Below, in pieces: positions 20,334-55,581 of a stretch of 64,000 nt of DNA; the first letter of the stretch is position 1; the number at the start of each line of letters is the position of its first letter. The notes below the pieces were generated by a model. That model was not told the DNA's origin. It saw only the letters and a program-made list of their open reading frames with translations, and made no database searches. A program made the translations under genes and the position numbers. This DNA is from Euglena gracilis. Its lineage: Eukaryota. The stretch covers positions 24,254,954 to 24,318,953 of the forward strand of contig CP154954.1 of assembly GCA_039621445.1 (NCBI GenBank), read 5' to 3'.

Positions 20334-21521
20334 ATCCTACCCAGTTTGACCCCTTCGCGCGTGAATAATTCGGGCCTGGCAGGGAGTTGGGGGTCAAACC
20401 CAGGTGATTCGGTAACTAGAAATCCAGTCGCTCGCGACTGAAAAAAAAATTCCGGGAACGGGGCCGGGATCATGGTGATAATCCGACGGTTCTCCTGGTG
20501 GCCCCGACCCGGGGGGGGGGAGGGGGGGGTCGAGGGGGGGGTTTCGCCGGGTGTAAGCTTCGCTCTTATCCATAAAGGGAGCGACCCCCGGGGGGGTAGC
20601 GGCTCATTTCCAGCCAGCAGCCTTTTTGCCAGCCGGAGGCTGAACCCCCCCCGGGGGCCCTTCAGAAGCTCCTGACCTTGGCCGATGTGCTAACCCCCCG
20701 CCAAAATAACCCCCCTGACGATGCGTAGCACTGGGACGGTGAAAAATGTCCCTGATAAATCAACAAAAAGCCCAATCACAAAAAGGTCACAAAATGATGA
20801 AATTTCAAAGATTTTCCAATTTTTGAAGTGCAAAAAAACCATGGTAAATGTCAATTTATACCAGTACATACATGGCGCGAAGCGCCGAAGGAAGAATCTT
20901 AGTGTTTTTGGGAACCTGAAAAATGATGATTTTTTCAGGCCCCGGTCGACCAAGAGAAAAGCTAAAAATAAAACTTCCCAAAATACGACCCCACTGGAGG
21001 TTTCCAGCAACCCCCATAAAAGACCCAGGTCTCATTTTGGGGGGTTCCTTTGGGACACCCCCCCCAGGGTGGGGTCGACCCCACCTTGAAATTCAGGCTG
21101 GCAATCTGGGCTAGCAGCATCCCCAGTGGGCGTTGCCGTGGCTGGGGTGGGGACAAAATTGGAATAAATTTTTTCTTCCTCTTTTTTAAATTATAAAAAA
21201 TTAAAATTCTGGTGATTTTCTGACATTTTTGAAGCCACCATTCTTTCCTTCATGTTAGATTTTCCTTGTTCAAGGTCCCAACCAAGGAAATTTTTAAAAA
21301 GTTTGGATCCCGGTGGGGGAGGGGGTAGGGTGGGTGGGTCTGCCAGACACTTTCCCGGCCTGACGGCTGTCACCGCCCACCGCCTGGGTGGTTCCCCCTT
21401 GAGAGCCCCTGCCGCAGACGGGGGTTTTGACCATGGCCATTTCCGCTTTTTTTTTGACCCCAAAGTGATCCCCAAAAATGTGGGTCCCCTGAACCGCCCC
21501 TCCCCCCCCCGCCCGAAGGTA
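20334..21521 (+). repeat. Left copy of a long direct repeat (right copy ~38925-39770), including a subfamily-2 unit end
   Basis: Same module order in both copies. The left copy has ~440 bp of extra MITE-related sequence after gatgcgtagcactgggac. Confidence 0.85.
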
Positions 21522-21538
21522 AATCCCAACCAAATATT

Positions 21539-24500
21539 ACCAGGGTGTGACGTAGAGCTGAGCTCTTTGGGATACCACCCCAGCCCGGCCCGGCGCCCGG
21601 CGCGGCCCGGCGGCCCGGCCCGGCGGCACGGCCCGGCGGCACGGCCCGGCGGCCCGGCCGGCGGCCCGGCGGCCCGGCGGCCCAGCCCAGCGGCCCGGCG
21701 GCCCGGCCGGCGGCCCGGCGGCCCGGCGGCCCGGCCGGCGGCCCGGTGGCCCGGCCGGCGGCCCGGCGGCCCGGCAGCCCAGCGGCCCGGCCGGCGGCCC
21801 CGCGGCTCGGCGGCCCGACCCGGCTGGCGGGTCGAAAAACGCTCATTTTCGGCTCAAAAACAGGTTTTAAGGGTCCTGGAGGCCAAAAAACGTTGTTCTG
21901 GGCAAAATTTTTTTTTGATTTTTTCGACTTTTTTTGGCCCAGTTTTGACCCAAATTCAATGGGTTGGTGGCCCAAAACGGGGCGCTGGAGGGTCGAAAAA
22001 CGCTCATTTTTGGCTCGAAAACACTTTTTTGGGGTGCGGGAGGTCAAAAATCATGGTTTTGGGCAAAATTTTTTTGCAAATTTTTTCGACTTTTTGACCC
22101 AAAAATGGCTAAGTCCACCGGCCAGGGGGGCAGGGGGGGGGTCCGGGTCGGAAAAAACTTTTTCGCCCAAAAACACTTTTTTTTGATGTTCTGAAGTGAA
22201 TAAAAGTGTTTTTGAGCGAAAAAATTTTTTCCAAAATTTTGGGTCCCGACCTGCCACCCGACCCGCCCTCACTGCGCCTGCAGGGGTCCCCGAATACCCA
22301 AAACTGGCCCAAAATCGCGCAACCAGGCCCCGGGAACCCCAAAAAACGGTCAAAACCCCCCCCTAAACCTAATGTTTGACCCCCGGTTTGGGTCCCAACT
22401 CCTCGTCTAGCCCGAGATACGGCCAATTTACGGTTTCGGGCCCCGAAATGGCCAGAACTGGCAAAACTAGCCCAAAACCCCCAAAACGGCCATATCTCGG
22501 GCTAGGCGAGGAGTTGGCCCAAACTGCGCATACCGATCGATCGGGCGTCCCAAAGTTGTGGAAGGATGTCCTCTTCACTTTTTCTCAACTCCGCAGCATT
22601 TTCGAGATATTTTGAATTTTTCGATTTTTGACCCCAAAATCACCCTGCAATTTCCCCGAAAAAAAAAACGGTAGACAACTTTTTTGCTCGGGCCACATCT
22701 CCGGACTGGCGGGGAGTTGCGGGTAACCTAAGGGCTCTGGAGGTACTAGGGATCGTCCCCTGACCTATGGGCCATTCACTTTGGGGGCCACGAAATCCAG
22801 TCACATCGATAATCCCGGGGTTTCCGGACCTACCCAGGGGGGGGGGGGGGGTGGGGGTCCGACCCGCCTCCGGCCCCGGTGGTAAGCTTCGCTCTTACTC
22901 TAAAGAGATAAGAGCTCAGCGACCAGGGTGTGACGTAGAGCTGAGCTCTTTGGGAGACCACCCCAGTCCGGCCGGCGCCCGGCCCGGTCCGGACCGGCCC
23001 GGCCGGCGGCCTGGCGGCCCGGCGGCCCGGCCATGCCGGCGGCCCGGCGGCCCGGCGGCCCGGCGGCCCGGCGGCCCGGCGGCCCGGCAGCCCGGCTGGT
23101 GGCCCGGCGGCCCGGGCCCGGCGGCCTGGCCCGGCCGGCGGCCCGGCCCCGGCCCGGACCGGCCCGGCAGCCCGGCCCGGCGAGGCCGGCGGCCCGGCGA
23201 GGCCGGCGGCCCGGCCCGTCCCGGCCGGCGGCCCGGCGGCCCGGCCCGGCCCGGCCGGCGGCCTGGCGGCCCGGCCCGGCCCGGCCCGGCCGGCGGCCCG
23301 TGGAGCTCTTTTGACTGAAATGCAAGAGTTTTGTGCCCAAAACGGGGCGCCGGGGGTTGGAAAACGTCCATTTTCGGCTCAAAAAAACACCGTTTCCGGG
23401 TCCGGGAGGCCAAAAAACATCGTTTCGGGCGAAAATAATTTTCGAATTTTTTCGACTTTTTTCGACTTTTCGACCGAAAATCAATGGGTTTGCGGCCCAA
23501 AACGTGGCGCCGGCGGGTCGAAAAACGCTTGTTTTCGGCTCAAAAACAGTTTTTCTGGGTCTGGGAGGCCAAAAAACATTGTTTCGGGCAAATTTTTTTT
23601 TGGATTTTGTTCGACTTTTTTGACCTGGTTTTGACCCAAAGTCAATGGGTTGGCAGCCCAAAACGGGGCGCTGGAAGGTCGAAAAACGCTCGTTTTCGGC
23701 GGGAGGTCAAAAAACATGGTTTTGGGCGAAAATTTTTTTTGACTTTTTTTGACTTTTTGACCCAAAAATGGCTAAGTCCACCGGCCAGGGGGGGCGGGCC
23801 CCAGCCAGGGGGGGGGGGGCATGCGGGGGGGGGGGTCCGGGTCGGTAAAATTTTTTTCGCTCAAAAACACTTTTTTTGATGTTCTGAAGTGAAAAAAAGT
23901 GTTTTTGAGCGAAAAAAAATTTCAGAATTTTGGGTCCCGACCTGCCACCCGACCCCCCGCCCAGCCGCCCTCACGCCGCCCGGTGGGGTTCCCGAATACC
24001 CAAATCTGCCCCAAATTCGCACAACCAGACCCCGGGAACCCCAAAAAACGGTCAAAACACCCCCCTAAACCAATGATTGACCCCCTGGTTTGGGTCCCAA
24101 CTCCCCGTCTAGCCCGAGATACGGCCAATTTACGGTTTCGGGCCCCGAAATGGCCAAAACTGGCAAAACTAGCCCAAAAACCCCCAAAACGGCCGTATCT
24201 CGGGCTAGGCGAGGAGTTGGCCCAAACCGCGCATACCGATCGATAGGGCGTTCCAAGGTCGTCAAATTAGGTCGCCATCACTTTTCCTCAACTCCGCAGC
24301 GTTTTCGAGATATTTTGAATTTTTCGATTTTTGGACCCCCAGCCGGCGGCCCTCGAACCCCCGCAGGGGTCCCCGAATACCCAAAAATGGCCCAAAATCG
24401 CACAACCAGACCCCGGGAACCCCAAAAAACGGTCTAAACCCCCCCTAAACCTAATGATTGACCCTCTGGTTTCGGTTCCAACTCCCCATCTAGCCCGAAA

Positions 24501-26505
24501 TACGGGCAAATCGGTTTCGGGCCCCGAACGGGCCCGAAATGGCCGAAACTGGCCAAACTGGCCCAAAACCACAAAACGGCCGTATCTCGGGCTAGGCGGG
24601 GAGTTGGCCCAAACCGCGCATACCGATCGATCGGGCGTCCCAAAGTTGTGGAACGACGTCCTCATTACTTTTTCTCAACTCCGCGGCGTTTTCGAGATAT
24701 TTTGAAATTTTCGATTTTTTGACCCCAAAATGACCCTGCAATTTCCCCGGAAAAAAAAACGGTAGACAACTTTTTTGCTTGGGCCATATCTCCGGAGTGG
24801 CGGAGAGTTGCGGGTAACCGAAGGGCTCTGGAGGTACTAGGGATCGTCCCCTAACCTATAGGCCATTCACTTTGGGGGCCCGGAAATCCAATCACATCGA
24901 TAATCCCGGGGTTTCCGGACCTACCCAGGGGGGGGGGGGGCGGGGTGGGGGTCCGACCCGCCTCCGGCCCCGGTGGTAAGCTTCGCTCTTACTCTAAAGA
25001 GATAAGAGCTCAGCGACCAGGGTGTGACGTAGAGCTGAGCTCTTTGGGAGACCACTCCGGCCCGGCCCGGGAAAAACACTCATTTTCGGCTCAAAAACAG
25101 TTTTTCCGGGTCCGGGAGGGCAAAAAACGTCGTTTCGGGCAAAAAATTTTTTCGATTTTTTTCGACTTTTTTGACCCGGGGTTGACCTAAAGTCAATGGG
25201 TTGGCGGCCCAAAGCGGGGCGCTGGCGGGTCGAAAAACGTTCATTTTTGGCTCGAAAACATTTTTGTCGGGTCCGGGTGGTCAAAAAACATGGTTTTGGG
25301 CAAAATTTTTTTGATTTTTTTTGACTTTTTTGACCCAAAAATGGCTAAGTCCACCGGACCCAGCCAGGCGGGGGGGGCATGGGGGGGGGGTCCGGGTCGG
25401 AAAATTTTTTTTCGCTCAAAAACACTTTTTTTGATGTTATGAAGTGAAAAAAAGTATTTTTGAGCCAAAAAATTTTTTTCAAAATTTTGGGTCCCGACCT
25501 GCCACCCGACCCCCCGTCGCCCAGCCGCCCTCACGCCGCCCGCAGGGGTCCCCGAATACCCAAAACTGGCCCAAAATCGCACAACCAGACCCCGGGAACC
25601 CCAAAAAACGGTCAACCCCCCCCCCTAAACCTAATGATTGACCCCTGGTTTGGGTCCCAACTCCTCGTCTAGCCCGACGGCCAATTTACGGTTTCGGGCC
25701 CGAACAGGCCCGAAATGGCCAAAACTGGCCCAAAACCCCCAAAACGGCCATATCTCGGGCTAGGCGAGGAGTTGGCCCAAACCGCGCATAGCGATCGATA
25801 GGGCGTCCAAAAGTTGTGGAGGGATGTCCTCTTTACTTTTCCTCAACTCCACAGCGTTTTCGAGATATTTTGAATTTTTTGACTTTTTGATCCCAGCCCG
25901 GTAGCCCTCGAACCCCTGCAGGGGTCCCCGAATACCCAAAAATGGCCCAAAATCGCACAACCAGACCCCGGGAACCCCAAAAAAACGGTCAACCCCCCCC
26001 CCCCTAAACCTAATGATTGACCCCCTGGTTTGGGTTCCAACTCCTCGTCCAGCCCGAGATACGGGCAAATTACGGTTTCGGGCCCCGAACGGGCCCGAAA
26101 CGGCCAAAACTGGCCAAACTGGCCCAAAACCACAAAACGGCCATATCTCGGGCTAGGCGAGGAGTTGGCCCAAACCGCGCATACCGATCGATCGGGCGTC
26201 CCAAAGTTGTGGAAGGACGTCCTCTTCACTTTTTCTCAACCCCGCAGCGTTTTCGAGATATTTTGAAATTTTCGATTTTTTGACCCCAAAATGACCCTGC
26301 AATTTTCCGGAAAAAAAAAACGGTAGACAACTTTTTTGCTCGGGCCATATCTCCGGACTGGCGGGGAGTTGCGGGTAACCTAAAGGCTCCAGAGATACTA
26401 GGGATCGTCCCCTAACCTATGGGCTTTTCACTTTGGGGGCCACAAAATCCAGTCACATCGATAATCCCGGGGTTTCCGGACCTACCCGGGGGGGGGGGGG
26501 GGGGG

Positions 26506-26537
<32 letters not shown>

Positions 26538-29261
26538 CGGGGCCCCCCGTCCCCGGTGGTAAGCTTCGCTCTTACTCTAAAGAGATAAGAGCTCAGCGAC
26601 CAGGGTGTGACGTAGAGCTGAGCTCTTTGGGAGACCACCCCTGCCCGGCCCGGCGGCCCGGCCCGTCCGGCGGCTCGGCGTCCCGGCCAGGCCGGCCCGG
26701 CGGCCCGGGGCCCCCGTCGACGGCCCGCCCGGCGGCCCTCCGGTCCCCCGGAACCCGGCCCTTTTCTGGATCACGACTCCGTGGTTTTTGGTCAAAAAAC
26801 ATTTTTTTTTTTTGATTCTTTTTTTCGGGGGTTGGAGGTGCTTTTGGGTGAAATTTTTTTTGAATTTTTTTGACTTTTTTGATCCAAAATGGCTAAGTCC
26901 ACTGGCCAGGGGCGGGCCCCCAGCCAGCCAGGGGGGGGGGCTCGGAAGGGCATGGGGGGTGCGGGTCGGAAATTTCGCGGGCCCAGTGGTGGGTCTTTAA
27001 CATTGATGTTCTGAATGAAAAAAAGTGTTTTTGAGCGAAAAATTTTTTTTTTCAAAATTTTGGGTCCCGACCTGCCACCCCGCCCCCCCCCCTACGCTCG
27101 GGGCCCCGCCCCCCCGACCCAATGCTAACGCCGCCCCCGATCCAACCCCCTCCCCCCTCCCCCCCCCCAAACCCATCCCCAACCCCCATGGACCCCCCCG
27201 GGGGGAGTGGGGAAAACTCAACGCAAAATTGGGGTCCAGTTGTAACCGCTCACACGGGCGTGGGGCGTGCCCCAACCCGAACCCCTGGCCAAAAGTCTCA
27301 CAAGGTGGACGGGCAAAACCTTCAATTATCGTTTTCGATTATTTTCGATTTTGGGTTTTGACCCAACCTGGCTCCCCCCTATATCCCGCCGTCACCTCCT
27401 CCACGGGGTGGCCGAACTTGGCAGAAATTTAGGCGGTTTGGGGTCCCTCATCTGGTTGGACCCCACCCATGGGTGGCCCCGAACGCCCCCCCGTGGGTGC
27501 CCTTCACTCCAAAAAAGGCCAATTGTGCGGGTTGGGGGGAGGGAAAAACGGATTGGACCCCCAAACTGGGTCCCAAACTCCCTCATAATCCAACCTTTGC
27601 CCCCAAAAACATTTTGGATCGACCAAATGGGGTCCCCTCCCCCTCTCCCGCCTGCCGAAAACCCTCGACGGGTGGGTCCCCGAATACCCAAAAATGGCCC
27701 AAAATCCCACAACCCGACCCCGGGAAACCCAAAAAACGGTCAAAAACTAAACCATGATTGACCCCCTGGTTTGGGCTCCAACTCCCGTCTAGCCGAGATA
27801 CGGCAAATTACGGTTCCGGGCCCGAACGGGCCCGAAATGGCCAGAACTGTCAAAACTGGCCCAAAACCCCAAAACGGCCTTATCTCCGGCTAGGCGGGGA
27901 GTTGGCCCAAACCGCGCATACCGATCGATCTGGCGTCCCAAAGTTGTGGAATGACGTCCTCTTTACTTTTTGTCAATTCCGCGGTGTTTTCGAGTTATTT
28001 TGCATTTTTATATTTTTTGCCCCCAAAATGACCGTGCGATTTCCCCGGAAAAAAAAAACGGTAGACAACTTTTTTGCTCGGGCCATATCTCCGGACTGGC
28101 GGGGAGTTACGGGTAACCGAAGTGCTCTGGAGAAACTAGGGAACCTCTCCTAACCTATAGGCTATTCACTTTGGGGGAAATCCAATCACATCGATAATCC
28201 TCGGGTGCCCCGACCTACCCAGGGGGGGGGGCGGGGTGGGGGAGGGGGGGCCTTCGCTCTTACTCTAAAGAGATAAGAGCTCAGCGACCAGGGTGTGACG
28301 TAGAGCTGAGCTCTTTGGGGGACCATTCCGGCCCGGCCTGCGAAAAACGCTCATTTTTGGCCCAAAAACATGTTTTCTGGATCCGGGAGACCATAAAACA
28401 TCGTTTTGGGCTGAAAAATTTTTTCGATATTTTTCGACTTTTTTGACCCGGTTTTGACCCAAAGTCAATGGGTTGGCGGACCAAAAAGGGGCCCTGGCGG
28501 GTCGAAAAACGCTCATTTTCAGCTCAAAAACACTTTTTCCGGGTCCGGGAGGCCAAAAAACATGGTTTTGGGCGAAAAATTTTTTTTCGATTTTTTTCGA
28601 CTTTTTTGACCCGGTTTTGACCCAAAGTCAATGGGTTGGCGAACCAAAACGGGGCGCTGGCGGGTCGAAAAACGCTCATTTTCGGCCTAAAAACACTTTT
28701 TCCGGGTCCGGGAGGCCCAAAAACATGGTTTTGGGCGAAAAAATTTTTTTTCGATTTTTTTCGACTGTTTGGCCCGAAAACGGCTAAGTCGGACAGTGGG
28801 AAAAGTGTACAAAACGGCCATTTGGACCGAAAAACGGCCATATCTCGGGCCAGGCGGGGAGTTGGCCCAAACTGCGCATACCGGTGGATAGGGCGTCCCA
28901 AAGTTGTGGAATGAGGTACTCTTTAGTTTTTCTCAACTCCCCAGCGTTTTCGAGATATTTTGAATTTTTCGATTTTTTGACCCCAAAAATGACCCCTTTT
29001 GCCGGTCCAACAAAATTTCTTTGGAAAAAAAACGGTAGACAACTTTTTTGCTCGGGCCAGATCTCCGGCGTGGCGCGGAGTTGCGGGCAACCTAAGGGCT
29101 CTGGACAAACTAGGGACCGTCTCCTAACCTATAGGCTATTAACCTTTCGGGTCCCGAAATCCAATCACATCGATAATCCTCGGGGGCCCGAGCCTACTCA
29201 GGGGGGGGGGGGCGGGGGGGCGGGGGGGGGGGGGCGGGGGGGGGGGGGGGGGGGGGGGGGG
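21539..29261 (+). mobile_element. Head-to-tail array of five non-coding modular units: 21539-22921, 22922-25015, 25016-26598, 26599-28286, 28287-~29261 (truncated)
   Basis: Each unit starts ACCAGGGTGTGACGTAGAGCTGAGCTCTTTGGG. The four complete units end CTTCGCTCTTACTCTAAAGAGATAAGAGCTCAGCG, and the four junctions are identical. Module order is conserved. Confidence 0.9.
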
Positions 29262-29263: not shown

Positions 29264-30975
29264 ATCCCTTTATGGGTAAGAGCGAAGCTTACCACCGGCG
29301 AAACCACCCCCCCCCCCCGACCCCCCCCCCCTCCCCCCCCGCCCCCCCCGGGTCGGGGCCACCTCGGGAACCGACGGATTATCACCATGATCCCGGCCCC
29401 GTTCCCGGATTTTTTTTTTTTCAGTCGCGAGCGACTGGATTCGTAGTTTCCGAAGCACCTGGGTTTGACCCCCAACTCCCCGCCAGGTCCGAGTTATTCA
29501 CGCGCGAAGGGGTCCAAACTGGGTAGGATCGGTCCGCCCCCCCCCCCCCCTTTGGACTCTGCCATTTCGGCCAAAAAAATGTCAATTTTCAAAATATCTC
29601 CAAAATGAAGCCAAATCAAAGGAAATGTCCGGAGACCTAAATTGAAGCCCTTGGAACGCCCCATCCACCGGTATTTTGATTTCCCCCCAACTCCCCGCCT
29701 AGCCCGAGATACGGCCGTTTTCGGCCCGGATGGCCGTTTTGTACACTTTTCCCTCTGTTCGACTTGGCCGTTTTCGGGGGGTGGGGGGTCAAAAAATCGA
29801 TGTTTTCAAAATTTATCGAAAATGATGCAAAATCAAAGGAAATGTCCGGAGACCTAAATTGAAGCCCTTGGAACGTCCCATCTACCGGTATTTTGGTTTC
29901 CCCGCAACTCCCCGCCCAGCCCGAGATACGGGCGTTTTTTTGGCCAATTTGGGCCATTTCAGGCCATTTTGTACACTTTTCCCTCTGTTCGACTTAGCCG
30001 TTTTCCGCCAAAAAAATCAAGAAAAATCGGAAAATCTTTTTTTGCCCGAAACGATGTTTTTTGGCCTCCCGGACCCGGAAAAACTGTTTTTGAGCCGAAA
30101 ACGAGCGTTTTTCGACCCGCCAGCGCCCCGTTTTGGGCCGCCGACCCATTGACTTTGGGTCAAAACCGGGTCGAAAAAGTCGAAAAAAATCGAAACCCGA
30201 AACGATGTTTTTTGGCCTCCCGGACCCAGAAAAACTGTTTTTGAGCCGAAAACGAGCGTTTTTCGACCCGCCAGCGCCCCGTTTTGGGCCGCCGACCCAT
30301 TGACTTTGGGTCAAAACCGGGTCGAAAAAGTCGAAGAAAATCCAAAAATTTTTTTTTGCCCGAAACGATGTTTTTTGGCCTCCCGGACCGTGAAAAACTG
30401 TTTTTGAGCCGAAAACGAGCGTTTTTCGACCCGCCAGCGCCCCGTTTTGGGCCGCCGACCCATTGACTTTGGGTCAAAACCGGGTCGAAAAAGTCGAAAA
30501 AAATCCAAAAAAATTTTTTTGCCCGAAACGATGTTTTTTGGCCTCCCGGACCCGGAAAAACTGTTTTTGAGCCGAAAACGAGCGTTTTTCGACTCGCCAG
30601 CGCCCCGTTTTGGGCCGCCGACCCATTGACTTTGGGTCAAAACCGGGTCGAAAAAGTCGAAAAAAATCCAAAAATTTTTTTTGCCCGAAACGATGTTTTT
30701 TGGTTCTCGGACCCGGAAAAACTGTTTTTGAGCCGAGACTGAGTGTTTTTCGACCCGTTTTGGGTGGCCGACCTATTGACTCTGGGTCAAAACCGGGTCA
30801 AAAAAGTGGAAAAAATCGAAAAAATTTTTTTTGCCCGAAACGATGTTTTTGGGTCTCCCGGACCCGGAAGAACTGTTTTCGAGCCGAAAATGAGCGTTTT
30901 TCGACTTCGACCCACCGGCCCCCTGTTTCTGGCACAAAACCCATGGATTTCAGGCAAAAGAGCTCCATGGAGTGG
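29264..30975 (-). mobile_element. Inverted subfamily-2 unit (CCCATAAAGGG hairpin variant)
   Basis: atccctttatgggtaagagcgaagcttacc is the reverse complement of the unit end seen at 39143-39172. The body is homologous to 38368-39184. Confidence 0.85.
30044..30905. repeat. Tandem ~163-bp repeat (about 5 copies) with regularly spaced A/T tracts
   Basis: cccgaaacgatgtttttt recurs at ~30045, 30196, 30359, 30522, 30684 and 30834. Confidence 0.9.
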
Positions 30976-31105
30976 GCCGGTATGTATGGAGGGGTCAATG
31001 AAGGGGTGGGTGCGCGCTTATTAAGACCTCAGCACTATTCAAAACCTGGTTTCGGGGGGGGGGTGGTAAGCTTCGCTCTTACTCTAAAGAGATAAGAGCT
31101 CAGCG

Positions 31106-32670
31106 CCCCCCCCCCCCCAAATAATACCCCCCCTTTGGTGTCTGACTTTGGCTGCCGAAATAATACTCCCCCCCCCCCGGTTTCGGGCCGAAGGCCCGAA
31201 TTTTTACCTGAAAATGAAGGTAAAAATCACAATCTCTGACAACATATTACGAAAAAAATCGATTCTTCTGGCTCATCAGACCTCCAAAAAATGGTAAATT
31301 TCACAAGAAAGTGCAAAAAATGACCCCAAAGGGGGGTTTTGGGTGCTATTTTGGGTTTTACGGGACTTCGAAAAATTTCGAAAATTTTGGAAAAAATAAT
31401 ACCCCCCCTCCCCAAATAATACCCCCCCCCTCGGGCCGGGACTTCGGGCGAAAAAAATAATACCCCGGGGGGTATTGTTTGGGGGGGGTATACCCCTGGA
31501 TGGATGGGTTGGAACCCCCCCAACTCCTCCGCGGCCTTAAAAAATGGGGGCTTGGAGCCCATTGAGCACCTCCGACCCGTGTCCCAAGCCTTCTGGCCTA
31601 TCCCACAGTGCCACGTTGCTCTGCTATTGTGGAAACGCCGACGAGTGCCATGATTGCGGCGCCCCCTGATTGTGGAAGTGTCTACGCGGCCAGGCACCTG
31701 TGTCTAAAACAGGGCCTAAAATGACTTCCCAACCCTTGTTAATCCTTGTCAATAACACTTTCGGGAATATTGCTGTGTCTCGGACAAGGGCTGGGTGGGA
31801 ATGTAAAATGAAATAACTGCCTGAATTAATTGTAATCCACAGGTATTGTCATGAGTAGCAATAATGGCACGAAACTCGGAACACACGTGTCGAGCATCCA
31901 CAAAGATTGCTTTTTGCAGCTTCGTGTTTTTTTTAATCAAATTCTTCCGACAATGTAATGATTTTGTACAAAAACAGCAATTGTGGTGTAATCATCGTTG
32001 ATTCTATCCTTCTTTGTAGTGCGTGCTTTCTTAAAAAAGTCTCCTGAAAAATGGGTGTTTTGAAAAATCGCTCCAGAGTTTTTGAATTTCAGAGCAAAGG
32101 TGTCTAAATTGGTGGTCTCCAAATTCAGCGGAGATGACCAGGTCTCCCCCCCCCCCCCCCCCGCCGACCCCTCCCTGCGGGGTCAGGTTTTGGGGCAGGG
32201 AGTGTAGCGTTGTGCCCCCCCCGCCGAGCGCTTGGCCCCCCTCCTCCTCACATGCAAACCTGGCCGCCCTGAAGCTGACTTCAGGAAAATATTTGACTGT
32301 TGGCTTGCGCTGGACCCAAACCGCACCCCCCCCCCACCGGGGATTATGCGCAGCAGAATCTCTTCTGTCAGGATTTTCCCTTCCCACGTACGATTTTTGA
32401 ACAGAGCCTCACCTAGATTTGATCAGTTTTCATGAATACGTCCCTGCTTCCTTTGACATGGGTTTCTGATTGAAGACTTGTGAACGTCTGATGAATCATT
32501 GGACTTTCAGAACAACCCAGTTTTGGTCAAGAAAATTTTTTGGTGGAAACAGCCCAAGGGTGTGAAAATGGGTGTCTGCACCCGACCCCTCTGGCTGCAA
32601 TGCCGTGGGGGTTCCAGCGTGTCGTCCATGTTGGCCCCTCCTGTAGCTCTGCAGTGACTCATGCAGCGCC
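31106..32670 (+). repeat. ~1.55 kb direct duplication (second copy ~34165-35700)
   Basis: Near-identical sequence; each copy starts immediately after a unit end (...GCTCAGCG) at a C tract. Confidence 0.9.
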
Positions 32671-34163
32671 GAAGCTTACCACCCCGGCGACGGGGGGGTC
32701 CAACCCCCCCCGCCCCCCCCCCCCCGCCCCCCCCGCCCCCCCCCCCCGCGCCCCCCCGCCCCCCCCCCCCTGGGTGCAATGGCCCCCGAGGATTATCGAT
32801 GTGATTGGATTTCCGGGCCCCCAAAGTGAATAGCCTATAGGTTAGGAGATGGTCCCTAGTTTCTCCAGAGCCCTTCGGTTACCCGTAACTCCCCGCCAGC
32901 CCGGAGATATGGCCCGAGCAAAAAAGTTGTCTACCGTTTTTTTTTCCGGGGAAATTGCAGGGTGATTTTGGGGTCAAAAAATCGAAAAATTCAAAATATC
33001 TCGAAAACGCTGGGGAGTTGACAAAAAGCGAAGAGGACGTCGTTCCACAACTTTGGGACGCCCGATCGATCGGTATGCGCGGTTTGGGCCAACTCCTCGC
33101 CTAGCCCGAGATACGGCCGTTTTGTGGTTTTGGGCCAGTTTTGCCAGTTTTGGCCATTTCGGGCCTATACGGGGCCCGAAACCGTAATTTGCCCGTATCT
33201 CGGGCTAGACGGGGAGTTGGAACCCAAACCAGGGGGTCAATACTTAGGTTTAGGGGGGGGTTTTGACCGTTTTTTGGGGTTCCCGGGGCCTGGTTGTGCC
33301 ATTTTGGGCCAGTTTTGGGTATTCGGGGACCACCGGCGCGTCAGGGCGGTGGCTGGGGGGGGTCGGGAACAGTGCAGGTCGGGACCCAAAATTTTTTTTC
33401 GCTCAAAAACACTTTTTTTCACTTCAGAACATCAAAAAAAGTGTTTTTGAGCGAAAAAAATTTTCCGACCCGAACCCCCCCCATGCCCCCCCCCCCTGGC
33501 TGGGGCCCGCCCCCTGACCGGTGGACATTTTTGGGTCAAAAGCCGAAAAAATTCGAAAATTTTTTTTTTGACCAAAACCATGATTTTTGACCTCCCGGAC
33601 CCGAAAAAAGTGTTTTCGAGCCAAAAATGAGCGTTTTTCGACCCGCCGGCGCCCCGTTTTGGGCCGCCAACCCATTGACTTTGGGTCAAAACCGGGTCAA
33701 AAAGGTCGAAAAAAATCGAAATTTTTTTTTGCCCCAAAGCGATGTTTTTTGGCCTCCCGGACCCGGAAAGCCTGTGTTTGAGCCGAAAATGAGCGTTTTT
33801 CGACCCGCCAGCGCCCCGTTTTGGGCCACCAACCCATGACTTCAGGTCAAAACCGGTCAAAAAAGTCGACAAGAATTGAAAAAAAAAATTTGGGCCCAAA
33901 ACCGTGTTTTTTGGCCTCCCTGACCCAGAAAAAAATGTTTTTGAGCCGAAAATGAGCGTTTTTCCCGGGACGGGCCGGGGTGGTCTCCCAAAGAGCTCAG
34001 CTCTACGTCACACCCTGGTCACTTTGGGGGCCCAGAAATCCAATCACATCGATAATCCTCGGGTGCCCCGACCTACCCAGAGGGGGGGGGCGGGGGGGGT
34101 CGGACCCCCCAGTCGCCGGGGTGGTAAGCTTCGCTCTTACTCTAAAGAGATAAGAGCTCAGCG
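32671..34163. mobile_element. Inverted near-full unit (32671-34019) joined to a short forward copy of the unit end (34020-34163)
   Basis: ...acgtcacaccctggt at 34005-34019 is the reversed unit start. 32671-32829 and 34020-34132 are mutually inverted. Confidence 0.85.
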
Positions 34164-37068
34164 ACCCCCCCCCAAATAATACCCCCCCCAAATAATACCC
34201 CCCCCTTTGTCTGACTTTGGCGACCGAAGGCCCGAATTTTTACCTGAAAATGAAGGTAAAAATCACAATCTCTGACAACATATTACGAAAAAAATCGATT
34301 CTTCTGGCTCATCAGACCTCCAAAAAATGGTAAATTTCACAAGAAAGTGCAAAAAATGACCCCAAAGGGGGGTTTTGGGTGCTATTTTGGGTTTTACGGG
34401 ACTTCGAAAAATTTCGAAAATTTTGGAAAAAATAATACCCCCCCCCCCCCAAATAATACCCCCCCCCCTCGGGCCGGGACTTCGGGCGAAAAAATAATAC
34501 CCCGGGGGGTATTGTTTGGGGGGGGGTTACCCCTGGATGGATGGGTTGGAACCCCCCCAACTCCTCCGCGGCCTTAAAAAATGGGGGCTTGGAGCCCATT
34601 GAGCACCTCCGACCCGTGTCCCAAGCCTTCTGGCCTATCCCACAGTGCCACGTTGCTCTGCTATTGTGGAAACGCCGACGAGTGCCATGATTGCGGCGCC
34701 CCCTGATTGTGGAAGTGGCTACGCGGCCAGGCACCTGTGTCTAAAACAGGGCCTAAAATGACTTCCCAACCCTTGTTAATCCTTGTCAATAACACTTTCG
34801 GGAATATTGCTGTGTCTCGGACAAGGGCTGGGTGGGAATGGAAAATGAAATAACTGCCTGAATTAATTGTAATACACAGGTATTGACATGAGTGGCAAAA
34901 ATGGCACGAAACTCGGAACACACGCGTAGAGCATCCACAAAGATTGCTTTTTGCAGCTTCGTGTTTTTTTAATCAAATTCTTCCGACAATGTAATGATTT
35001 TGTACAAAAACAGCAATTGTGGTGTAATCATCGTTGATTCTATCCTTCTTTGTAGTGCGTGCTTTCTTAAAAAAGTCTCCTGAGAAATGGGTGTTTTGAA
35101 AGATCGCTCCAGAGTTTTTGAATTTCAGAACAAAGGTGTCTAAATTGGTGGTCTCCAAATTCAGCGGAGATGACCAGGTCTCCCCCCCCCCCCCCCCCCG
35201 CCGACCCCTCCCTGTGGGGTCAGGTTTTGGGGCAGGGAGTGTAGCGTTGTGCACCCCCCGAGCGCTGGCCCCCCTCGTCCTCACATGCGATCCTGTCCTC
35301 CCTGAAGTTGACTTCAGGAAAATTTTGACTGTGCTTGCGCTTCCACCCCCCCCCCCAAACCGCCCCACCCCCCCCCGGGATTATGTGCAGCAGAATCTCT
35401 TCTGTCAGGATTCCCCTTCCACGGATTTTGAACAGAGCCTCACCTAGATTTGATCAGTTTTCATGAATACGTCCCTGCTTGCTGTGACATGGGTTTCTGA
35501 TTGAAGACTTGTGAACGTCTTATGAATCATTGGACTTCAGAACAACCCCCGTTTGGGTCAAGAAAAATGGTGGAAAACAGCCCAAGGGGGTGAATATGGG
35601 TGTCTGCACCCGGCCCCTCGGGCTGCAAATATGCGGCGCCGCGGCCCGGTTTCCGGGCTCAGCTGGATTGCAATTTTGACCGTGACTCATGCACGCTTGC
35701 GCTGAGTCCTCAAAAGTGCAACTTATGGCGCTGGATGCGCGGTTGGCATTGTTAAATGCCAACCCCCCCGCAGGCTGATTCCCCCCACCTTCCTTCCTTT
35801 GCGAGTGGAATCAGGTTTGGGGGGAAGGGTATAGGGTGCCTCGGCCTGCAGGCCAGAGGCCAGCTCCTGCGCTTTGTTCTAAGCTCCCCCTGCTTCCTCC
35901 ATGCCACCCCATCCGGCCAGCGCATGACCGACAGTGTCCACCAAGCGCTGCTCAGCCCCCCTGAGGGATTTCCCCCCCCCCACCCCCTGGAGCATGTTGT
36001 CCCTCCTGGACCATAGTTCATGCCGGCACTGATGCGCCGACCAACCTGGCCCTCACCGGCCCCCATTGACTGGCAATGACCCCCGTCAGCCAGACCTTTC
36101 CAGCGCCATCTGATGACGCTTTTGCACCCAAAATGACCGGCGTGAATCGTCCCGTAGTTTTGATCATCATTAAGTCTTTGACAGAAAATTTTTTGTTTGT
36201 TTTCATGACCAAAAAAGCCCAATGAGCACCCTCATGGCCATCTCAGGCCGCACATGGCCATGTGGATCTGTACATGAGTCATCTGGCCGCGGAATAACGC
36301 TCCCCCACCCTTCATGCCCCCTATCGCGGGTCCCGAGCTCGCGAGGCTTATAAGGGGTCCATGGGTGTCGGGATGGGTGAGGGGGGGGTCGGCCAAGCTT
36401 CCATCTTACCCATTGGCTCTTTTTCCTCTACGACATTTTGGTTCGGCACAGAGCCCACTGCCCCTGAGCGCCCTGGGGGTCAAGCTTCATTGAGGTTTTT
36501 GAGCAAATAGGGGCCCCTGACCGGGGATGGTGTTCACCATAACCACCTGAAGACCTCAGCCCAATTGTGGGCCTCCCCCATGATGGCTCTGACCGTTTTT
36601 TTTTGTGATCCTGGGCAAGCCCACCCTTGCCTTCATGATGATTGTTCAGCCAAGGTACTGAAGCTGCCACCATGATTGTGGCCATCATGTTGGCCCCTGC
36701 CCAATGGCCTGACCTTGTCGCCGACCTGGGTGCGCCATGAGGTCGAAAATGGCCACTAGTTTTTTGACAATAACCGCACCCCCTCCGATGGGTTGGAAAC
36801 CAAGCCTATTGAGCCTTTTTTATTCATGCACCCCATATGACCTGTCTGCGCACAAATGGCCGAAACACATGCGGTCTGTGGCCACGATGGGCCCATTTTC
36901 CCGAGGCAAGTGGAAACGGGCCAGGATTTGTGTTTTTTCTATTTTTTTGTTTTCGGACACATGGCATGGTGAATGAAAAATATAACTGCATTGTACACGT
37001 GGGGCATCATGAGGCATGAAATGGCCCACTTGGAAACCCATGATCCACATTTCGATTGTGTTTTTTTG

Positions 37069-38367
37069 CATCATGGGTCATGATGGGCATCATGGGTCAT
37101 GATGGGCATCATTGGTCAGGATGGCCATCATGGGTCATGATGGCCATCATGGGTCATGATGGCCATCGTGGGTCATGATGGGCATCATGGGTCATGATGG
37201 CCACCGTGGGTCATGATGGGCATCATGGGTCATGATGGCCATCATGGGTCATGATGAGCATCATGGTCATGATGGCCATCATGGGTCATGATGGGCATCA
37301 TGGGTCGTGATGGGCATCATTGGTCATGATGGCCATCATTGGTCATGCTGGGCATCATGGGTCATGATGGGCATCATGGGTCATGATGGCCATCATGGGT
37401 CATGATGAGCATCATGGGTCATGATGGCCATCATGGGTCATGATGGGCATCATGGGTCGTGATGGGCATCATTGGTCATGATGGCCATCATTGGTCATGA
37501 TGGGCATCATTGGTCATGATGGCCATCATGGATCATGATGGGCATCATGGGTCATGATGGCCATCATGGGTCATGATGGCCATCATTGGTCATGATGGCC
37601 ATCATGGATCATGGTGGGCATCATTGGTCATGATGGCCACCATTGGCTATGATAAGCATCATGGGTCATGATGGGCATCATTGGTCATGATGGCCATCAT
37701 GGGTCGTGATGGGCATCATGGGTCATGATGGCCATCATTGGTCATGATGGCCATCATTGGTCATGATGGCCATCATGGATCATGGTGGGCATCATTGGTC
37801 ATGATGGCCACCATTGGCTATGATAAGCATCATGGGTCATGATGGCCATCATGGGTCATGATGGGCATCATGGATCATGATGGGCATCATTGGTCATGAT
37901 GGCCATCATTGGTCATGATGGGCATCATTGGTCATGATGGCCATCATGGATCATGATGGTCATCATGGGTCATGATGGCCATCATGGGTCATGATGGCCA
38001 TCATGGATCATGATGGGCATCATTGGTCATGATGGCCATCATGGGTCATGATGGGCATCATGGTTCATGATGGGCATCATTGGTCATGATGGCCATCATT
38101 GGTCATGATGGCCATCATGGATCATGATGGGCATCATTGGTCATGATGGCCACCATGGGTCATGATGGCCATCATGGGTCATGATGGCCATCATGGGTCA
38201 TGATGGGCATCGTGGGTCATGATGGGCATTATTGGTCATGATGGCCATCATTGGTCATGATGGCCATCATGGATCATGATGGACATCATTGGTCATGATG
38301 GCCACCATGGGTCATGATGGCCATCATGGATCATGATGGGCATCATGGCCATCACGGGCCATGATGG
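37069..38367. repeat. 19-bp palindromic minisatellite, about 68 copies (CATCATGGGTCATGATGG[C/G])
   Basis: Uninterrupted tandem array. Each monomer is CATCATG-NNN-CATGATG plus 2 nt. Confidence 0.95.
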
Positions 38368-39184
38368 TCGAAAAAAGCTCATTTTCGGCTCGAAAACCCT
38401 TTTTCCGGGTCCGGGAGGCCAAGAAGCAAGGTTTTGGGTAAAATTTTTTTTTCGATATTTTTCGCCTTTTTTGGCCGAAAACGGCTAAGTCCACCAGTGG
38501 AAAAAGTGTACAAAATGGCCAAAATCGGCCGAAAAACGGCCGTATCTCGGGCTACGCGAACGGTTGCGGGGAAATCAAAAATACCGGTAGATGGAGTGTT
38601 CCAAGGGTTTCAAATTAGGTCTCCGGACATTTCCTTTGATTTTGCTTCATTTTGAGAAATTTTGAAAATATTGATTTTTGGCCGAATTTTGGCCGAAAAC
38701 GTACAAAATGGCCCGTTGGCCGAAAACGGGCTTATCTCGGGCCAGGCGGGGAGTTGCGGGGAAATCAAAATACCAGCAGATGGGGCGTTCCAAGGGCTTC
38801 AAATTAGGTCACCAGACATTTCGTTTGATTTGGCTTCATTTTGGAGATATTTTGAAAAGTGACATTTTTTGGCCGAAATGGCAGAGTCCAAAGGGGGGGG
38901 CTTATCCAGGGGGGGGGGGTGGGCCAATCCTACCCAGTTTGGACCCCTTCGCGGGTGAATAACTCGGGCCTGGCAGGGAGTTGGGGCTCAAACCCAGGTG
39001 GTTCGGAAACTCGGAATCCAGTCGCTCGCGACTGAAATTTTTTTTTTCGGGAACGGGGCCGGGATCATGGTGATAATCCGTCGGTTCCCGAGGTGGCCCT
39101 GAGGGGGGGGGAGGGGTGGGTTTGGGGGGGGTTTCCCCCAGGGGTAAGCTTCGCTCTTACCCATAAAGGGATAAGAGCTCAGCG
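38368..39184 (+). mobile_element. Forward, start-truncated subfamily-2 unit
   Basis: Ends GGTAAGCTTCGCTCTTACCCATAAAGGGATAAGAGCTCAGCG, followed by ACCCCCCCC. Confidence 0.85.
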
Positions 39185-40057
39185 ACCCCCCCCTATACCC
39201 CCCGGGGGGGGGTAGCAGCTCATTTCCACCAGCCCAGCCCAGCCCCCTCCAGCCCGGGACCCTCCCCCCCCCCTAATTCCCCTGGGGGGGGTAGCAGCTC
39301 ATTTCCAGCCAGCAGCCTTTTTTGCCAGCCGGAGGCTGGACCCCACCCCGAGGATCCTTAAGAAAACCCCTGACCTTGGCCGATGTGCTAACCCCCCGCC
39401 AAAATAACCCCCCTGACGATGCGTAGCACTGGGACCTCTTTTTTAAATTATAGAATTCAAAAATCTGGTGATTTTCTGACATTTTTGAAGCCACCATTCT
39501 TTTCTTCATGTTAGATTTTCCTTGTCCAAGGTCCCAACCAAGGAAATTTTTAAAATTTTTGGATCCCAGTGGGGGGGGTCTGTCAGACACTTTCCCGGCC
39601 TGACAGCTGTCACCGCCTCTCACCGCCTGGGCGGTTCCCCCAAGGACCTTGAGAGCCCCTGCCGCAGACGGGGGTTTTGACCATGGCCATTTCCGCTTTT
39701 TTTTTTGACCCCAAAGTGATCCCCAAAAATGTGGGTCCCCTGAACCGTCCCTCCCCCCCCCCCGAAGGTATTCCTGGGTGGATGGGTTGGGAACCCCGCA
39801 ACACCTCCGCGGCCTAAAAAAAAATGGGGGCTTGGGGCCCATTGAGCACCTCCGACCCGTGTCCCCAGCCTTCTGGCCTATCCCACAGTGCCACGTTTTG
39901 ATTGGCCACTGCCACTGAGGTACGTCCCCCACTGGGTCTCTTGGGAGCGGGGTTGCTGCGATACCGATGGCTCGAGGCCTGATGGGTGGATAGGTGGGAC
40001 GGCCGCGTAATGGGTGAATCTGACCTGCCAGCCAGAGGCTGTTGTGTGGCAGTGCAG

Positions 40058-52949: not shown

Positions 52950-53056
52950 GTAAGGGACGGTATTTTTTATATATATTTTTTTAGTTAACGACCACCCCCT
53001 TAAGGACCCCCCCCCCCCCAATACACAGAAAGGCCCCTACACCACCGGTTTTTTTC

Positions 53057-53090
53057 ATATATATATATATATATATATATCTATATATAT

Positions 53091-53135
<45 letters not shown>

Positions 53136-53158
53136 CTATATATATATAGATATAATAT

Positions 53159-53190
<32 letters not shown>

Positions 53191-53201
53191 ATATATATAT
53201 A

Positions 53202-53236
<35 letters not shown>
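53057..53236. repeat. (TA)n microsatellite
   Basis: Read directly from the sequence. Confidence 0.95.
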
Positions 53237-53239
<3 letters not shown>

Positions 53240-53269
53240 CATCTCTTTATTTTTTGTCTGTCTTTAAAG

Positions 53270-53385
53270 GGATGTGTGCAACCAGCAAGCTGCCGAGCAG
53301 AGGAAGGAGAAGGACCGGAAGCAAGCCCTTCGGAAGCTGGCGCTCACAATTACGTTCAACCCGGCACCGGATTTGGACGACAATT
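53270..53385 (+). CDS. Gene D exon (DVCNQQAAEQRKEKDRKQALRKLALTITFNPAPDLDDN)
   Basis: Pyrimidine tract and AAG acceptor; GTGAGC donor at 53386; protein-like composition; phase fits the exon at 55941. Confidence 0.6.
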
Positions 53386-55270: not shown

Positions 55271-55536
55271 ATTGGGATTTTTTCCCTCTCGCACCACTCA
55301 GGCGGTGCCTGTTGGCGTTTCCTCAGAGGGCGGGGGTGGGTTAGATTCGGGTGAAATTTCAGGACCCCCAAGGGGGGTTTTATATTTGGGGGCGGTTTAC
55401 CCGCCCGGTTCGACCCTGGGTCGGACCCAGTTTCAGCTGGGGGGAGCCCCCACAAAGGGGGCGGGGGTCTGCCAGCAGCCCCTTTCCAGCCAGCCCACAT
55501 TTTCCAGCCTTCGAGTTGACCTCATTCCCCCAGGAT

Positions 55537-55539
55537 GTG

Positions 55540-55581
<42 letters not shown>

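What the first reader, a model, noticed from the sequence alone, without database searches (positions are those of the whole stretch)
39143..39187. Compensatory base change in the terminal hairpin between two subfamilies
Seen: subfamily 1 has inner stem CTC...GAG (CTCTAAAGAGA) and subfamily 2 has CCC...GGG (CCCATAAAGGGA; also inverted at 29264-29290 and degenerate at 20553-20586). This is a T-A to C-G double change inside an otherwise identical stem, while the adjacent bodies differ. On the minus strand the stem reads GCT-GA-GCTCTTA...TAAGAGC-GA-AGC, giving tandem GA/GA mismatches; on the plus strand these are TC/TC. Established: tandem sheared G-A pairs are stabilising. Inference: the structure is under selection and the minus strand is the functional single strand.
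Basis: partly seen in the sequence, partly recalled or inferred. Interest (0 to 1): 0.7.

Follow-up and report, generated by a model that had tools for sequence, protein, structure and literature searches.

The report
Conserved end hairpin of abundant repeat
A 45-base hairpin-forming module shared by two versions of a very abundant non-coding repeat differs by one matched base-pair swap, which fits a maintained stem but is too little to prove selection or to say which strand matters.

Summary
39143-39187 is an imperfect palindrome with 16 pairs, a 2x2 TC/TC internal loop, an A bulge and a 5-nt loop. Six other intact copies carry CTC-TAAA-GAG where this one has CCC-ATAAA-GGG. That is one T-A to C-G swap plus one extra loop A. 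The neighbouring bodies are only 49% alike, against 95% for the hairpin.

The module is real and very abundant: 37,499 and 21,398 contigs of two DNA runs lay on the 551-nt stretch, with depth peaking on the hairpin. Similarity between copies breaks in the homopolymer runs on both sides.

The inference is weak. It rests on one event among 5 distinct sequences, and 188 of 500 shuffles reach the same covariation. Every other stem change in the window breaks pairing, and 3 of 10 copies lack the 3' arm. Both strands fold about equally. RNA reads are few, come from both directions and show no defined ends.

Best reading: the cis-acting end signal of a non-autonomous mobile or tandem repeat in a homopolymer-rich eukaryotic genome, class unresolved. 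A single template-switch mutation could give the same double change without selection. The claim that the minus strand is the functional one is not supported.

The parts
39143..39187 (.). Only intact subfamily-2 hairpin module: GGT/ACC, GCT/AGC, 2x2 loop TC/TC, GCTCTTA/TAAGAGC, bulged A, CCC/GGG, loop ATAAA
   Evidence: covariance-model match of 74.7 bits
39160..39170 (.). Inner stem and loop. The pair 39161/39169 is C-G here and T-A in subfamily 1. A39163 is an extra loop base.
39151..39152 (.). 5' half of the 2x2 internal loop. It is TC on the plus strand, facing TC at 39179-39180. The minus strand reads GA facing GA. It is invariant in all 7 intact copies.
39179..39180 (.). 3' half of the 2x2 internal loop
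22881..22924 (+). Subfamily-1 hairpin (CTC-TAAA-GAG), first of four head-to-tail units
   Evidence: (83.9 bits)
24975..25018 (+). Subfamily-1 hairpin
26558..26601 (+). Subfamily-1 hairpin
28246..28289 (+). Subfamily-1 hairpin in which GGTAAG is replaced by GGGGGC. This breaks two outer pairs.
   Evidence: (71.0 bits)
31065..31108 (+). Subfamily-1 hairpin with no subfamily-1 body upstream, only a G-run. A-to-C at 31106 breaks one outer pair. A 1.5-kb duplicated block (31060-32600) starts here.
34123..34166 (+). Subfamily-1 hairpin with about 120 nt of body upstream. The twin 1.5-kb block (34118-35628) starts here.
29264..29293 (-). Subfamily-2 copy with the 5' arm, inner stem and loop only. The 3' arm is replaced by a poly-C run.
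   Evidence: (18.5 bits)
20552..20583 (+). Subfamily-2 copy lacking the 10 nt TAAGAGCTCA of the 3' arm, with a C-to-T change in the inner stem. It is a paralogue of the 39-kb locus over more than 1 kb.
32670..32688 (-). Subfamily-1 body and G-run ending in GGTGGTAAGCTTCG, followed by unrelated sequence. The hairpin is cut after 6 nt.
38916..39142 (+). Subfamily-2 body and G-rich tract upstream of the hairpin. It is shared with 20323-20580 and, inverted, with 29322-29726.
39186..39193 (+). C-run after the hairpin. It can pair with the upstream G-run. Similarity between genomic copies breaks at 39193.
   Evidence: loose ends at 39193: 160 and 134 contigs
22940..22950 (+). 11-nt perfect inverted copy of the 3' arm, 19 nt downstream of the hairpin. 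It recurs at 25034, 26617 and 28305. The same block is found without a hairpin at 21557 and inverted at 33991.

Best explanation
The 45-nt stretch is the conserved end module of a very abundant, non-coding repeat family. The family is both dispersed and in head-to-tail arrays. It sits in a eukaryotic nuclear genome littered with G/C homopolymer runs.

The module is an imperfect palindrome that can fold on either strand. It lies where similarity between copies stops. I read it as a cis-acting end signal. An enzyme supplied in trans would recognise, start at or stop at the stem-loop while copying the element. Only templates with an intact module would then leave many descendants, which would keep the sequence and, where it changes, the pairing.

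Of the two possible chemistries I lean to DNA-level, rolling-circle-like copying (about 0.25) over RNA-level retroposition (about 0.15). The reasons are that hairpin-ended units lie head to tail, that unrelated bodies share the same end, and that no poly(A) tail or tRNA-like head was found.

Shown here: the sequence, its folding, its conservation relative to the flanks, its abundance, its position at similarity breaks, and low RNA from both strands. Inferred: mobility, recognition by an enzyme, and the chemistry. The T-A to C-G swap is what such a constraint would allow, but it is one event. Which strand is read is unresolved.
For: Conservation. The hairpin is 42 of 44 identical between subfamilies whose bodies are 64 of 130 identical. 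Within subfamily 1, 1 of 35 core columns varies against 38 of 230 body columns.

Abundance. 37,499 of 30.08 million contigs (X1) and 21,398 of 13.98 million (X2) lay on 551 nt. Summed word depth on the hairpin bins is 3.41-3.47 million (X1) and 1.34-1.36 million (X2). It is 0.24-1.28 million just upstream, 0.85 million just downstream, and 145-339 at 39394-39450. The tool warns that depth is not a copy number.

End position. Contigs run on into unlike sequence before 39143 (136 in X1, 119 in X2) and behind 39193 (160 and 134). In the window the hairpin is followed by three unrelated contexts.

Arrangement. Hairpins lie head to tail at spacings of 2094, 1583 and 1688 nt. One copy has only a G-run plus the hairpin.

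Folding. Energies are -8.5 to -10.4 kcal/mol as DNA and -17.5 to -21.8 as RNA, with z from -2.4 to -4.6.

No coding capacity. 0 Pfam matches in the 210 longest of 306 open frames of 90 or more codons.
Against: Three of ten copies lack the 3' arm. This is unexpected if the 3' end were always required, unless they are decayed copies.

No target-site duplication, empty site or 5' end was defined.

The sequence after the stem is G + ACC/CCC followed by a C-run or ACCAGGG, not the Helitron CTRR.

No partner gene lies in the window, and no genome is held to search for one.

The hairpin also sits at the start of a 1.5-kb duplicated block. It may therefore be a junction module rather than an end.

All stem changes other than the one swap break pairs.

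Genome-wide variants of the hairpin could not be counted. One search showed only 40 of 166 variant rows, and none between 39143 and 39255.
Confidence: 0.4

Rival explanations
1. No selection on structure. The palindrome is a piece of satellite-like or segmentally duplicated DNA. It is alike among copies because they are recent duplicates or are homogenised by conversion. The T-A to C-G swap, together with the neighbouring loop insertion, arose as one clustered mutation. One arm was copied from the other by template switching during replication.
For: The three differences between the two hairpin versions lie within 9 nt, at 39161, 39163 and 39169. That pattern is typical of a single complex event. 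Template switching is reported to fix stem pairing in one step (PMC8794818, abstract read). Many window copies are not independent: four are units of one array, 31065 and 34123 lie in a 92.8% duplicated block, and 20552 and 39143 lie in another. All other stem changes break pairs, and 3 of 10 copies lack an arm. 188 of 500 shuffles reach the observed covariation.
Against: The same module is joined to bodies only 49% alike and to three unrelated downstream contexts. Its depth peaks above both flanks in two independent DNA runs. Plain duplication of larger blocks explains this poorly.
Confidence: 0.3
2. RNA-level version. The module is the 3' tail stem-loop of a SINE-like retroposon, recognised by the reverse transcriptase of a partner LINE and followed by a simple-repeat tail.
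For: A conserved tail is shared by different bodies. The stem has an internal loop, as in the eel UnaL2 tail (PMC1636434, abstract start seen in the listing). The module is followed by a C-run plus short A/T-rich words, and C-run AAATAATA occurs twice at 34165-34205. Two copies are cut short on the 5' side. Some RNA covers the module.
Against: No tRNA-like head: ARAGORN found 0 genes, and relaxed runs gave only scattered noise with nothing at 38950-39040. There is no poly(A) and no target-site duplication. Head-to-tail arrays are not expected for retroposons. Three copies are cut on the 3' side. RNA depth is tiny: 203 of 12.9 million and 203 of 8.29 million reads. It tracks DNA depth, and no place was found where molecules begin or end.
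Confidence: 0.15
3. The minus strand is the working single strand, because there the 2x2 loop is a tandem sheared G-A pair (5'-YGAR-3' on both sides), which stabilises the stem.
For: The minus strand reads T-GA-G opposite C-GA-A. From recalled knowledge, that is the context in which tandem sheared G-A pairs form and stabilise. The RNA model gives the minus strand 1.0-1.8 kcal/mol more stability. In the one library that looks stranded (X24), first mates lie on plus 35.7 and 33.8 against 14.7 and 16.8 on the hairpin bins. Under the commonest library chemistry that would mean more minus-sense RNA.
Against: The DNA model shows no difference: -10.4 against -10.3 and -8.5 against -8.5. The loop never varies in the 7 intact copies, so it carries no evolutionary signal. 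The chemistry of library X24 is not on record, its bias is only about 2.4 to 1, and 0.90 of its laid reads run on into unlike sequence. X21 shows 12.8 and 13.3 against 8.95 and 9.89. Either strand has a near-neutral wobble intermediate.
Confidence: 0.1

Closest known systems
3' palindrome of Helitrons (rolling-circle DNA transposons)
   Same: A short palindrome lies at the conserved 3' end of non-coding copies. Bodies differ while the end is shared. Head-to-tail arrays occur. There is no coding capacity in the copies.
   Different: Canonical Helitrons end in CTRR about 11 bp after a 16-20-nt palindrome, begin with TC, and insert between A and T (PMC4067079, passages read). Here the palindrome spans 35-45 nt. 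Similarity ends 1-9 nt after the stem, in G + ACC/CCC plus a C-run, with no CTRR. The 5' end and target are undefined, and no Rep/helicase was seen.
HINE / DINE-1 non-autonomous Helentrons
   Same: Very abundant non-coding elements with a 3' stem-loop. They have internal microsatellite or tandem-repeat blocks and short inverted repeats near the ends (PMC4067079, passages). Here 163-nt tandem repeats and a mononucleotide G-run lie upstream of the stem-loop. An 11-nt inverted copy of the 3' arm lies 19 nt downstream in four copies.
   Different: HINE palindromes are 5-10 bp, sit 8-35 bp from the end, and are flanked by T strings in T-rich targets. Here the flanks are C-runs followed by TATA or AAATAATA. 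SubTIRs at the 5' end could not be tested.
3' tail stem-loop of stringent LINE/SINE pairs (e.g. eel UnaL2)
   Same: A conserved tail is shared by different elements. The stem has an internal loop that matters for mobilisation (PMC1636434, abstract start in the listing). A short repeat tail follows.
   Different: No partner LINE, promoter-bearing head, target-site duplication or clean 5'-truncation series was found. Some copies are truncated on the 3' side.
Template-switch ('quasipalindrome') mutation in inverted repeats
   Same: It explains a matched double change plus a nearby indel in a stem as one event (PMC8794818, abstract).
   Different: It is a mutation mechanism, not a kind of element. 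It does not explain why the module is so abundant or sits at similarity breaks.

Membership tests
Canonical Helitron | 3' terminus CTRR about 11 bp after the palindrome | tested here: not met
   After the stem come G + ACC/CCC and then a C-run or ACCAGGGTG. There is no CTRR in any of the 7 intact copies.
Canonical Helitron | 16-20-nt palindrome near the 3' end | tested here: inconclusive
   A palindrome is present at the similarity break. It is 35-45 nt with 16 pairs, an internal loop and a bulge.
Canonical Helitron | 5' TC, insertion between A and T, no target duplication | tested here: inconclusive
   The 5' end could not be defined in this nest of repeats, and no empty site was found.
Canonical Helitron | Autonomous partner with Rep/helicase carrying the same ends | not testable with these tools
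   0 Pfam matches in 210 of 306 open frames in the window. No genome is held.
HINE / DINE-1 (Helentron non-autonomous) | 12-15-bp subterminal inverted repeats at both ends | tested here: inconclusive
   An 11-nt inverted copy of the 3' arm lies 19 nt downstream in 4 copies. The 5' end is unknown.
HINE / DINE-1 (Helentron non-autonomous) | T strings at the boundaries, T-rich target | tested here: not met
   The 3' flanks are a C-run followed by TATA (39148 copy) or AAATAATA (31070 and 34128 copies).
HINE / DINE-1 (Helentron non-autonomous) | Internal microsatellite or tandem repeats in some copies | tested here: met
   163-nt tandem repeats and G-runs of 8-31 nt lie upstream of the hairpins.
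Stringent LINE/SINE 3' tail | Conserved 3' stem-loop shared by elements with different bodies | tested here: met
   42 of 44 identical in the hairpin against 64 of 130 in the body.
Stringent LINE/SINE 3' tail | Pol III head (tRNA-, 7SL- or 5S-like) | tested here: not met
   ARAGORN found 0 genes. Relaxed runs gave nothing at the body. Rfam gave 0 matches at gathering score and only sub-threshold noise otherwise.
Stringent LINE/SINE 3' tail | Target-site duplications, intact 3' ends, 5' truncations | tested here: inconclusive
   Two copies are cut on the 5' side, but three are cut on the 3' side. No duplication was seen.
Any Rfam RNA family | Match at the family's gathering score | tested here: not met
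   0 matches in the whole window. The best match over the hairpin is 26.1 bits against a gathering score of 47.

The most novel reading that the evidence does not exclude
The module may belong to an undescribed kind of hairpin-ended modular element. In this kind, short conserved blocks are bracketed by G-runs and C-runs, so that the G-run, hairpin and C-run together form a long cruciform. The blocks would be joined to ever-different neighbours at those homopolymer runs. Possible mechanisms are a structure-specific nuclease or transposase, or a polymerase or reverse transcriptase that adds homopolymer tails and jumps templates. That would tie the genome's striking load of G/C homopolymers (157 runs of 8 nt or more in 64 kb) to the spread of its commonest repeats.
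Probability: 0.1. Interest if true: 0.6.

Novelty: new member of a known kind. Interest (0 to 1): 0.25.

Why it matters
If the hairpin is a true end signal, it gives a handle for defining and classifying what may be one of the commonest repeats of a hard-to-assemble, homopolymer-rich genome. It would also help find the enzyme that moves the repeat. The covarying pair, taken alone, adds little. It is one event in a repeat hairpin, and a known mutation mechanism can produce it without selection.

Tried and rejected
Outside copies. Pattern scans found 0 matches in genome contigs, metagenome contigs (where I wrote the wrong loop spacing, and with the right one) and viral contigs. No whole genome is held for this window.

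Genome-wide variants. The one read-laying run printed 40 of 166 variant rows, none inside 39143-39255. Compensatory and disruptive changes could therefore not be counted beyond the window. I do not take the absence of rows as evidence.

More local copies. A covariance model of the 7 intact hairpins, run with filters off, found only the copies already known. Everything else was noise at 12 bits or less. A fuzzy regular-expression search timed out.

tRNA-derived SINE head. A-box-like and B-box-like words in the body led nowhere.

Known RNA families. None matched.

Coding capacity. No Pfam matches.

Literature. A full-text search for four 12-mers of the arms returned only unrelated primer-type hits in 6 papers.

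Earlier scan notes. None were found.

Organism. The homopolymer load resembles what the Physarum genome paper describes (PMC4758236, passages; related searches). I have no test of the organism and make no claim about it.

Canonical Helitron membership. Rejected on the missing CTRR.

Strand from wobble routes. Computed single-change intermediates show one cheap route on each strand, so they do not discriminate.

Full report
WHAT IS THERE

One search shows GGTAAGCTTCGCTCTTACCCATAAAGGGATAAGAGCTCAGCGACC at 39143-39187. One search gives the parts:
- outer pairs GGT/ACC
- GCT/AGC
- a 2x2 internal loop, TC opposite TC
- a 7-bp stem, GCTCTTA/TAAGAGC
- a bulged A at 39171
- an inner 3-bp stem, CCC/GGG
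- the loop ATAAA

Six further intact copies lie on the plus strand at 22881, 24975, 26558, 28246, 31065 and 34123. They carry CTC-TAAA-GAG in the inner stem and loop. The two versions therefore differ by T-A against C-G at one pair (39161/39169) and by one extra loop A (39163).

The 5' arm is far commoner than chance. There are 18 matches at up to 2 mismatches against 1.65 expected, and 0 of 100 shuffles reach 18.

A covariance model of the seven intact hairpins, run over the whole window with filters off, found no further copies beyond two broken ones. Everything else scored 12 bits or less.

The three broken copies are:
- 29264-29293 (minus strand). Subfamily-2 type, ending after GGGAT and running into poly-C.
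- 20552-20583. Subfamily-2 type, lacking TAAGAGCTCA and carrying a C-to-T change in the inner stem.
- 32670-32688 (minus strand). A subfamily-1 body and G-run that end in GGTGGTAAGCTTCG, followed by unrelated sequence.

Two additions are needed: two of the three subfamily-2 copies have no 3' arm, and there is a tenth, truncated copy.

THE SETTING

The window has no tRNA gene and no Rfam match at gathering score. There was no Pfam match in the 210 longest of its 306 open frames of 90 or more codons. No whole genome is held for it.

The window is a mosaic of repeats:
- 163-nt tandem repeats
- (GGCCCGGCGG)n arrays
- a 19-nt array
- TG and AT microsatellites
- many inverted repeats

It also holds 157 G or C runs of 8 nt or more. 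It looks like non-coding nuclear DNA of a eukaryote. I could not establish which one.

ABUNDANCE AND POSITION

I laid two DNA runs and two RNA runs on 38900-39450.

In the DNA runs, 37,499 of 30.08 million contigs (X1) and 21,398 of 13.98 million (X2) lay on these 551 nt. Summed word depth in X1 was:

| Stretch | Summed word depth (X1) |
|---|---|
| 39109-39127 | 0.24 million |
| 39128-39146 | 1.28 million |
| 39147-39184 (the two hairpin bins) | 3.41 and 3.47 million |
| 39185-39203 | 0.85 million |
| 39204-39222 | 3,134 |
| 39394-39450 | 145-339 |

In X2 the two hairpin bins reached 1.34 and 1.36 million. The tool warns that these sums are not copy numbers. I take them only to show that the module is very abundant and more so than its immediate flanks.

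Many contigs run on into unlike sequence just before 39143 (136 in X1, 119 in X2) and just behind 39193 (160 and 134). The loose-end consensus is G-rich upstream and C-rich downstream.

In the window the hairpin is followed by three unrelated contexts:
- ACCAGGGTG... in the four arrayed copies. The same block occurs without any hairpin at 21548-21580.
- A C-run followed by AAATAATA, in the copies at 31065 and 34123.
- A C-run, TATA, a C-run and a G-run, then TAGCAGC, in the copy at 39143.

The hairpin is preceded by two kinds of body that are only 64 of 130 positions alike, while the hairpins are 42 of 44 alike (Fisher p = 7e-9). Within subfamily 1, 38 of 230 body columns vary among four copies against 1 of 35 core hairpin columns (p = 0.038). 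These copies are units of one array and are not independent.

So the module is conserved, sits at the point where similarity between copies ends, and is shared by different neighbours.

Two complications remain. A 1.5-kb duplicated block (31060-32600 and 34118-35628, 92.8% identical) starts exactly at the hairpin's G-run. The 20-kb and 39-kb subfamily-2 loci are paralogous well beyond the hairpin.

FOLDING AND THE STRAND QUESTION

| Model | Subfamily 2, plus / minus (kcal/mol) | Subfamily 1, plus / minus (kcal/mol) | z-scores |
|---|---|---|---|
| DNA | -10.4 / -10.3 | -8.5 / -8.5 | -2.4 to -4.0 |
| RNA | -20.0 / -21.8 | -17.5 / -18.5 | -3.2 to -4.6 |

With the flanking G-run and C-run included, the stem lengthens. 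The stretch 39120-39215 folds at -29.8 kcal/mol as DNA, with z = -4.2.

The minus strand does place GA opposite GA in a Y-GA-R context. From recalled knowledge, that is where tandem sheared G-A pairs form. The models give that strand at most 1.8 kcal/mol more stability, and none as DNA. The DNA parameter set may simply lack a specific term for this motif.

The loop never varies in the seven intact copies, so it says nothing about selection.

Single-change intermediates between the two stem versions were computed, using the RNA model:
- T-G on the plus strand costs 0.9 kcal/mol.
- The other single change gives G-U on the minus strand, and there the fold is 1.2 kcal/mol more stable than the real subfamily-1 hairpin.
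- The remaining two single-change readings cost more: C-A on the plus strand 4.3 kcal/mol, and C-A on the minus strand 2.8.

So the swap does not point to either strand.

RNA

Only 203 of 12.9 million reads (X21) and 203 of 8.29 million reads (X24) lay on the stretch. Of these, 0.95 and 0.90 run on into unlike sequence, so they come from other copies.

Depth on the hairpin bins, first mate on plus against first mate on minus:
- X21: 12.8 and 13.3 against 8.95 and 9.89
- X24: 35.7 and 33.8 against 14.7 and 16.8

RNA depth along the stretch follows DNA depth. No place was found where many molecules begin or end.

X24 looks stranded, because the next module (39223-39374) has the opposite bias. 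Its chemistry is not on record, so the 2.4-to-1 bias cannot be turned into a strand. This pattern is low-level read-through transcription of a repeat, not a discrete structured RNA.

THE COVARIATION

On the seven intact copies (five distinct sequences), one search gives, for the 16 pairs:
- 13 never vary.
- 1 has a change on both sides.
- 2 depart only by unpaired cells. There are three such cells: two in the copy at 28246 and one in the copy at 31065.
- 188 of 500 shuffles reach the observed covariation score.

A simple count puts the chance that two random substitutions in 44 positions hit both sides of one pair at 0.017, or about 0.006 if they must also restore a pair. That is suggestive, but it rests on one event.

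The three differences between the versions lie within 9 nt. That is the pattern expected of one complex mutation. Replication template switching is reported to fix stem pairing in a single step (PMC8794818, abstract read).

Adding the three copies without a 3' arm, every stem change in the window other than the swap breaks pairing, apart from one wobble in a copy that has already lost its arm. Dead copies are, however, expected to decay in this way.

WHAT IT MOST LIKELY IS

I read the module as the cis-acting end signal of a non-autonomous repeat that is copied by an enzyme encoded elsewhere (confidence 0.4).

I lean to DNA-level, rolling-circle-like copying for these reasons:
- hairpin-ended units lie head to tail, at spacings of 2094, 1583 and 1688 nt
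- unrelated bodies share one end
- tandem-repeat blocks and a mononucleotide run lie upstream of the stem-loop, as in HINE/DINE-1 elements
- there is no poly(A) tail or tRNA-like head

Membership in the canonical Helitrons fails on the 3' CTRR. The HINE T-string flanks are also absent (definitions from passages of PMC4067079).

The RNA-level alternative is a LINE-recognised 3' tail with an internal loop, as in UnaL2 (PMC1636434, abstract start seen in the listing). It fits the shared tail and the short repeat tail. It does not fit the arrays or the 3'-truncated copies.

A neutral palindrome maintained by descent and template switching remains a serious rival (0.3).

NOVELTY AND SCORE

A conserved terminal hairpin in an abundant repeat is a known kind of thing. 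This one matched nothing in the libraries and collections I could search, but no repeat library was on hand. The single covarying pair is of low interest by itself.

The link between module boundaries and G/C homopolymer runs is the more unusual aspect. I keep it as the novel reading, at low probability.

Noticed in passing
whole window; e.g. 26488-26537, 29201-29261, 63963-63982: There are 157 G or C homopolymer runs of 8 nt or more (longest G run 31, longest C run 20) in 64 kb, about one per 400 nt. Boundaries between repeat modules often fall in them.
   Followed up: partly
36942-38370: A tandem array of a 19-nt unit with 65 or more registers, also about 73% self-complementary over roughly 500-nt arms.
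   Followed up: no
29962-30905, 33488-33964, 28343-28776, 38366-38700: A family of 151-163-nt tandem repeats rich in A and T runs. It occurs in both orientations and flanks the hairpin-bearing units.
   Followed up: no
21568-21852 and 22966-23245: Arrays of (GGCCCGGCGG)-like 8- and 12-nt periods. They follow the block ACCAGGGTGTGACGTAGAGCTGAGCTCTTTGGGA both with a hairpin before it (22921) and without one (21548).
   Followed up: partly
38956-39004: In RNA run X21, 29 reads share one foreign flank before 38956 and 19 reads share another behind 39004. They carry letters rare in DNA, e.g. 38982 T>C in 33 of 90 RNA reads against about 1% of DNA depth. Some expressed locus elsewhere holds just this 49-nt piece of the subfamily-2 body.
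   Followed up: no
39223-39374: The next module downstream is itself abundant, with summed depth up to 0.96 million in X1. In X24 it shows the opposite read-direction bias to the hairpin: 1-3 against 8-23.
   Followed up: no
39036-39047, 20441-20452, 29411-29424: An A-run/T-run junction inside the subfamily-2 body varies between copies: AAATTTTTTTTTT, AAAAAAAAATT and A12T. In the reads, T>A at 39038-39044 holds 11-72% of DNA depth, and many contigs break there.
   Followed up: no
39146-39151 and 39175-39180: Each arm of the hairpin holds a 6-nt palindrome, AAGCTT and GAGCTC. These allow alternative local pairing or pairing between copies.
   Followed up: no
55528-55880 and 53053-53270: Long TG/CG-type and AT microsatellites.
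   Followed up: no
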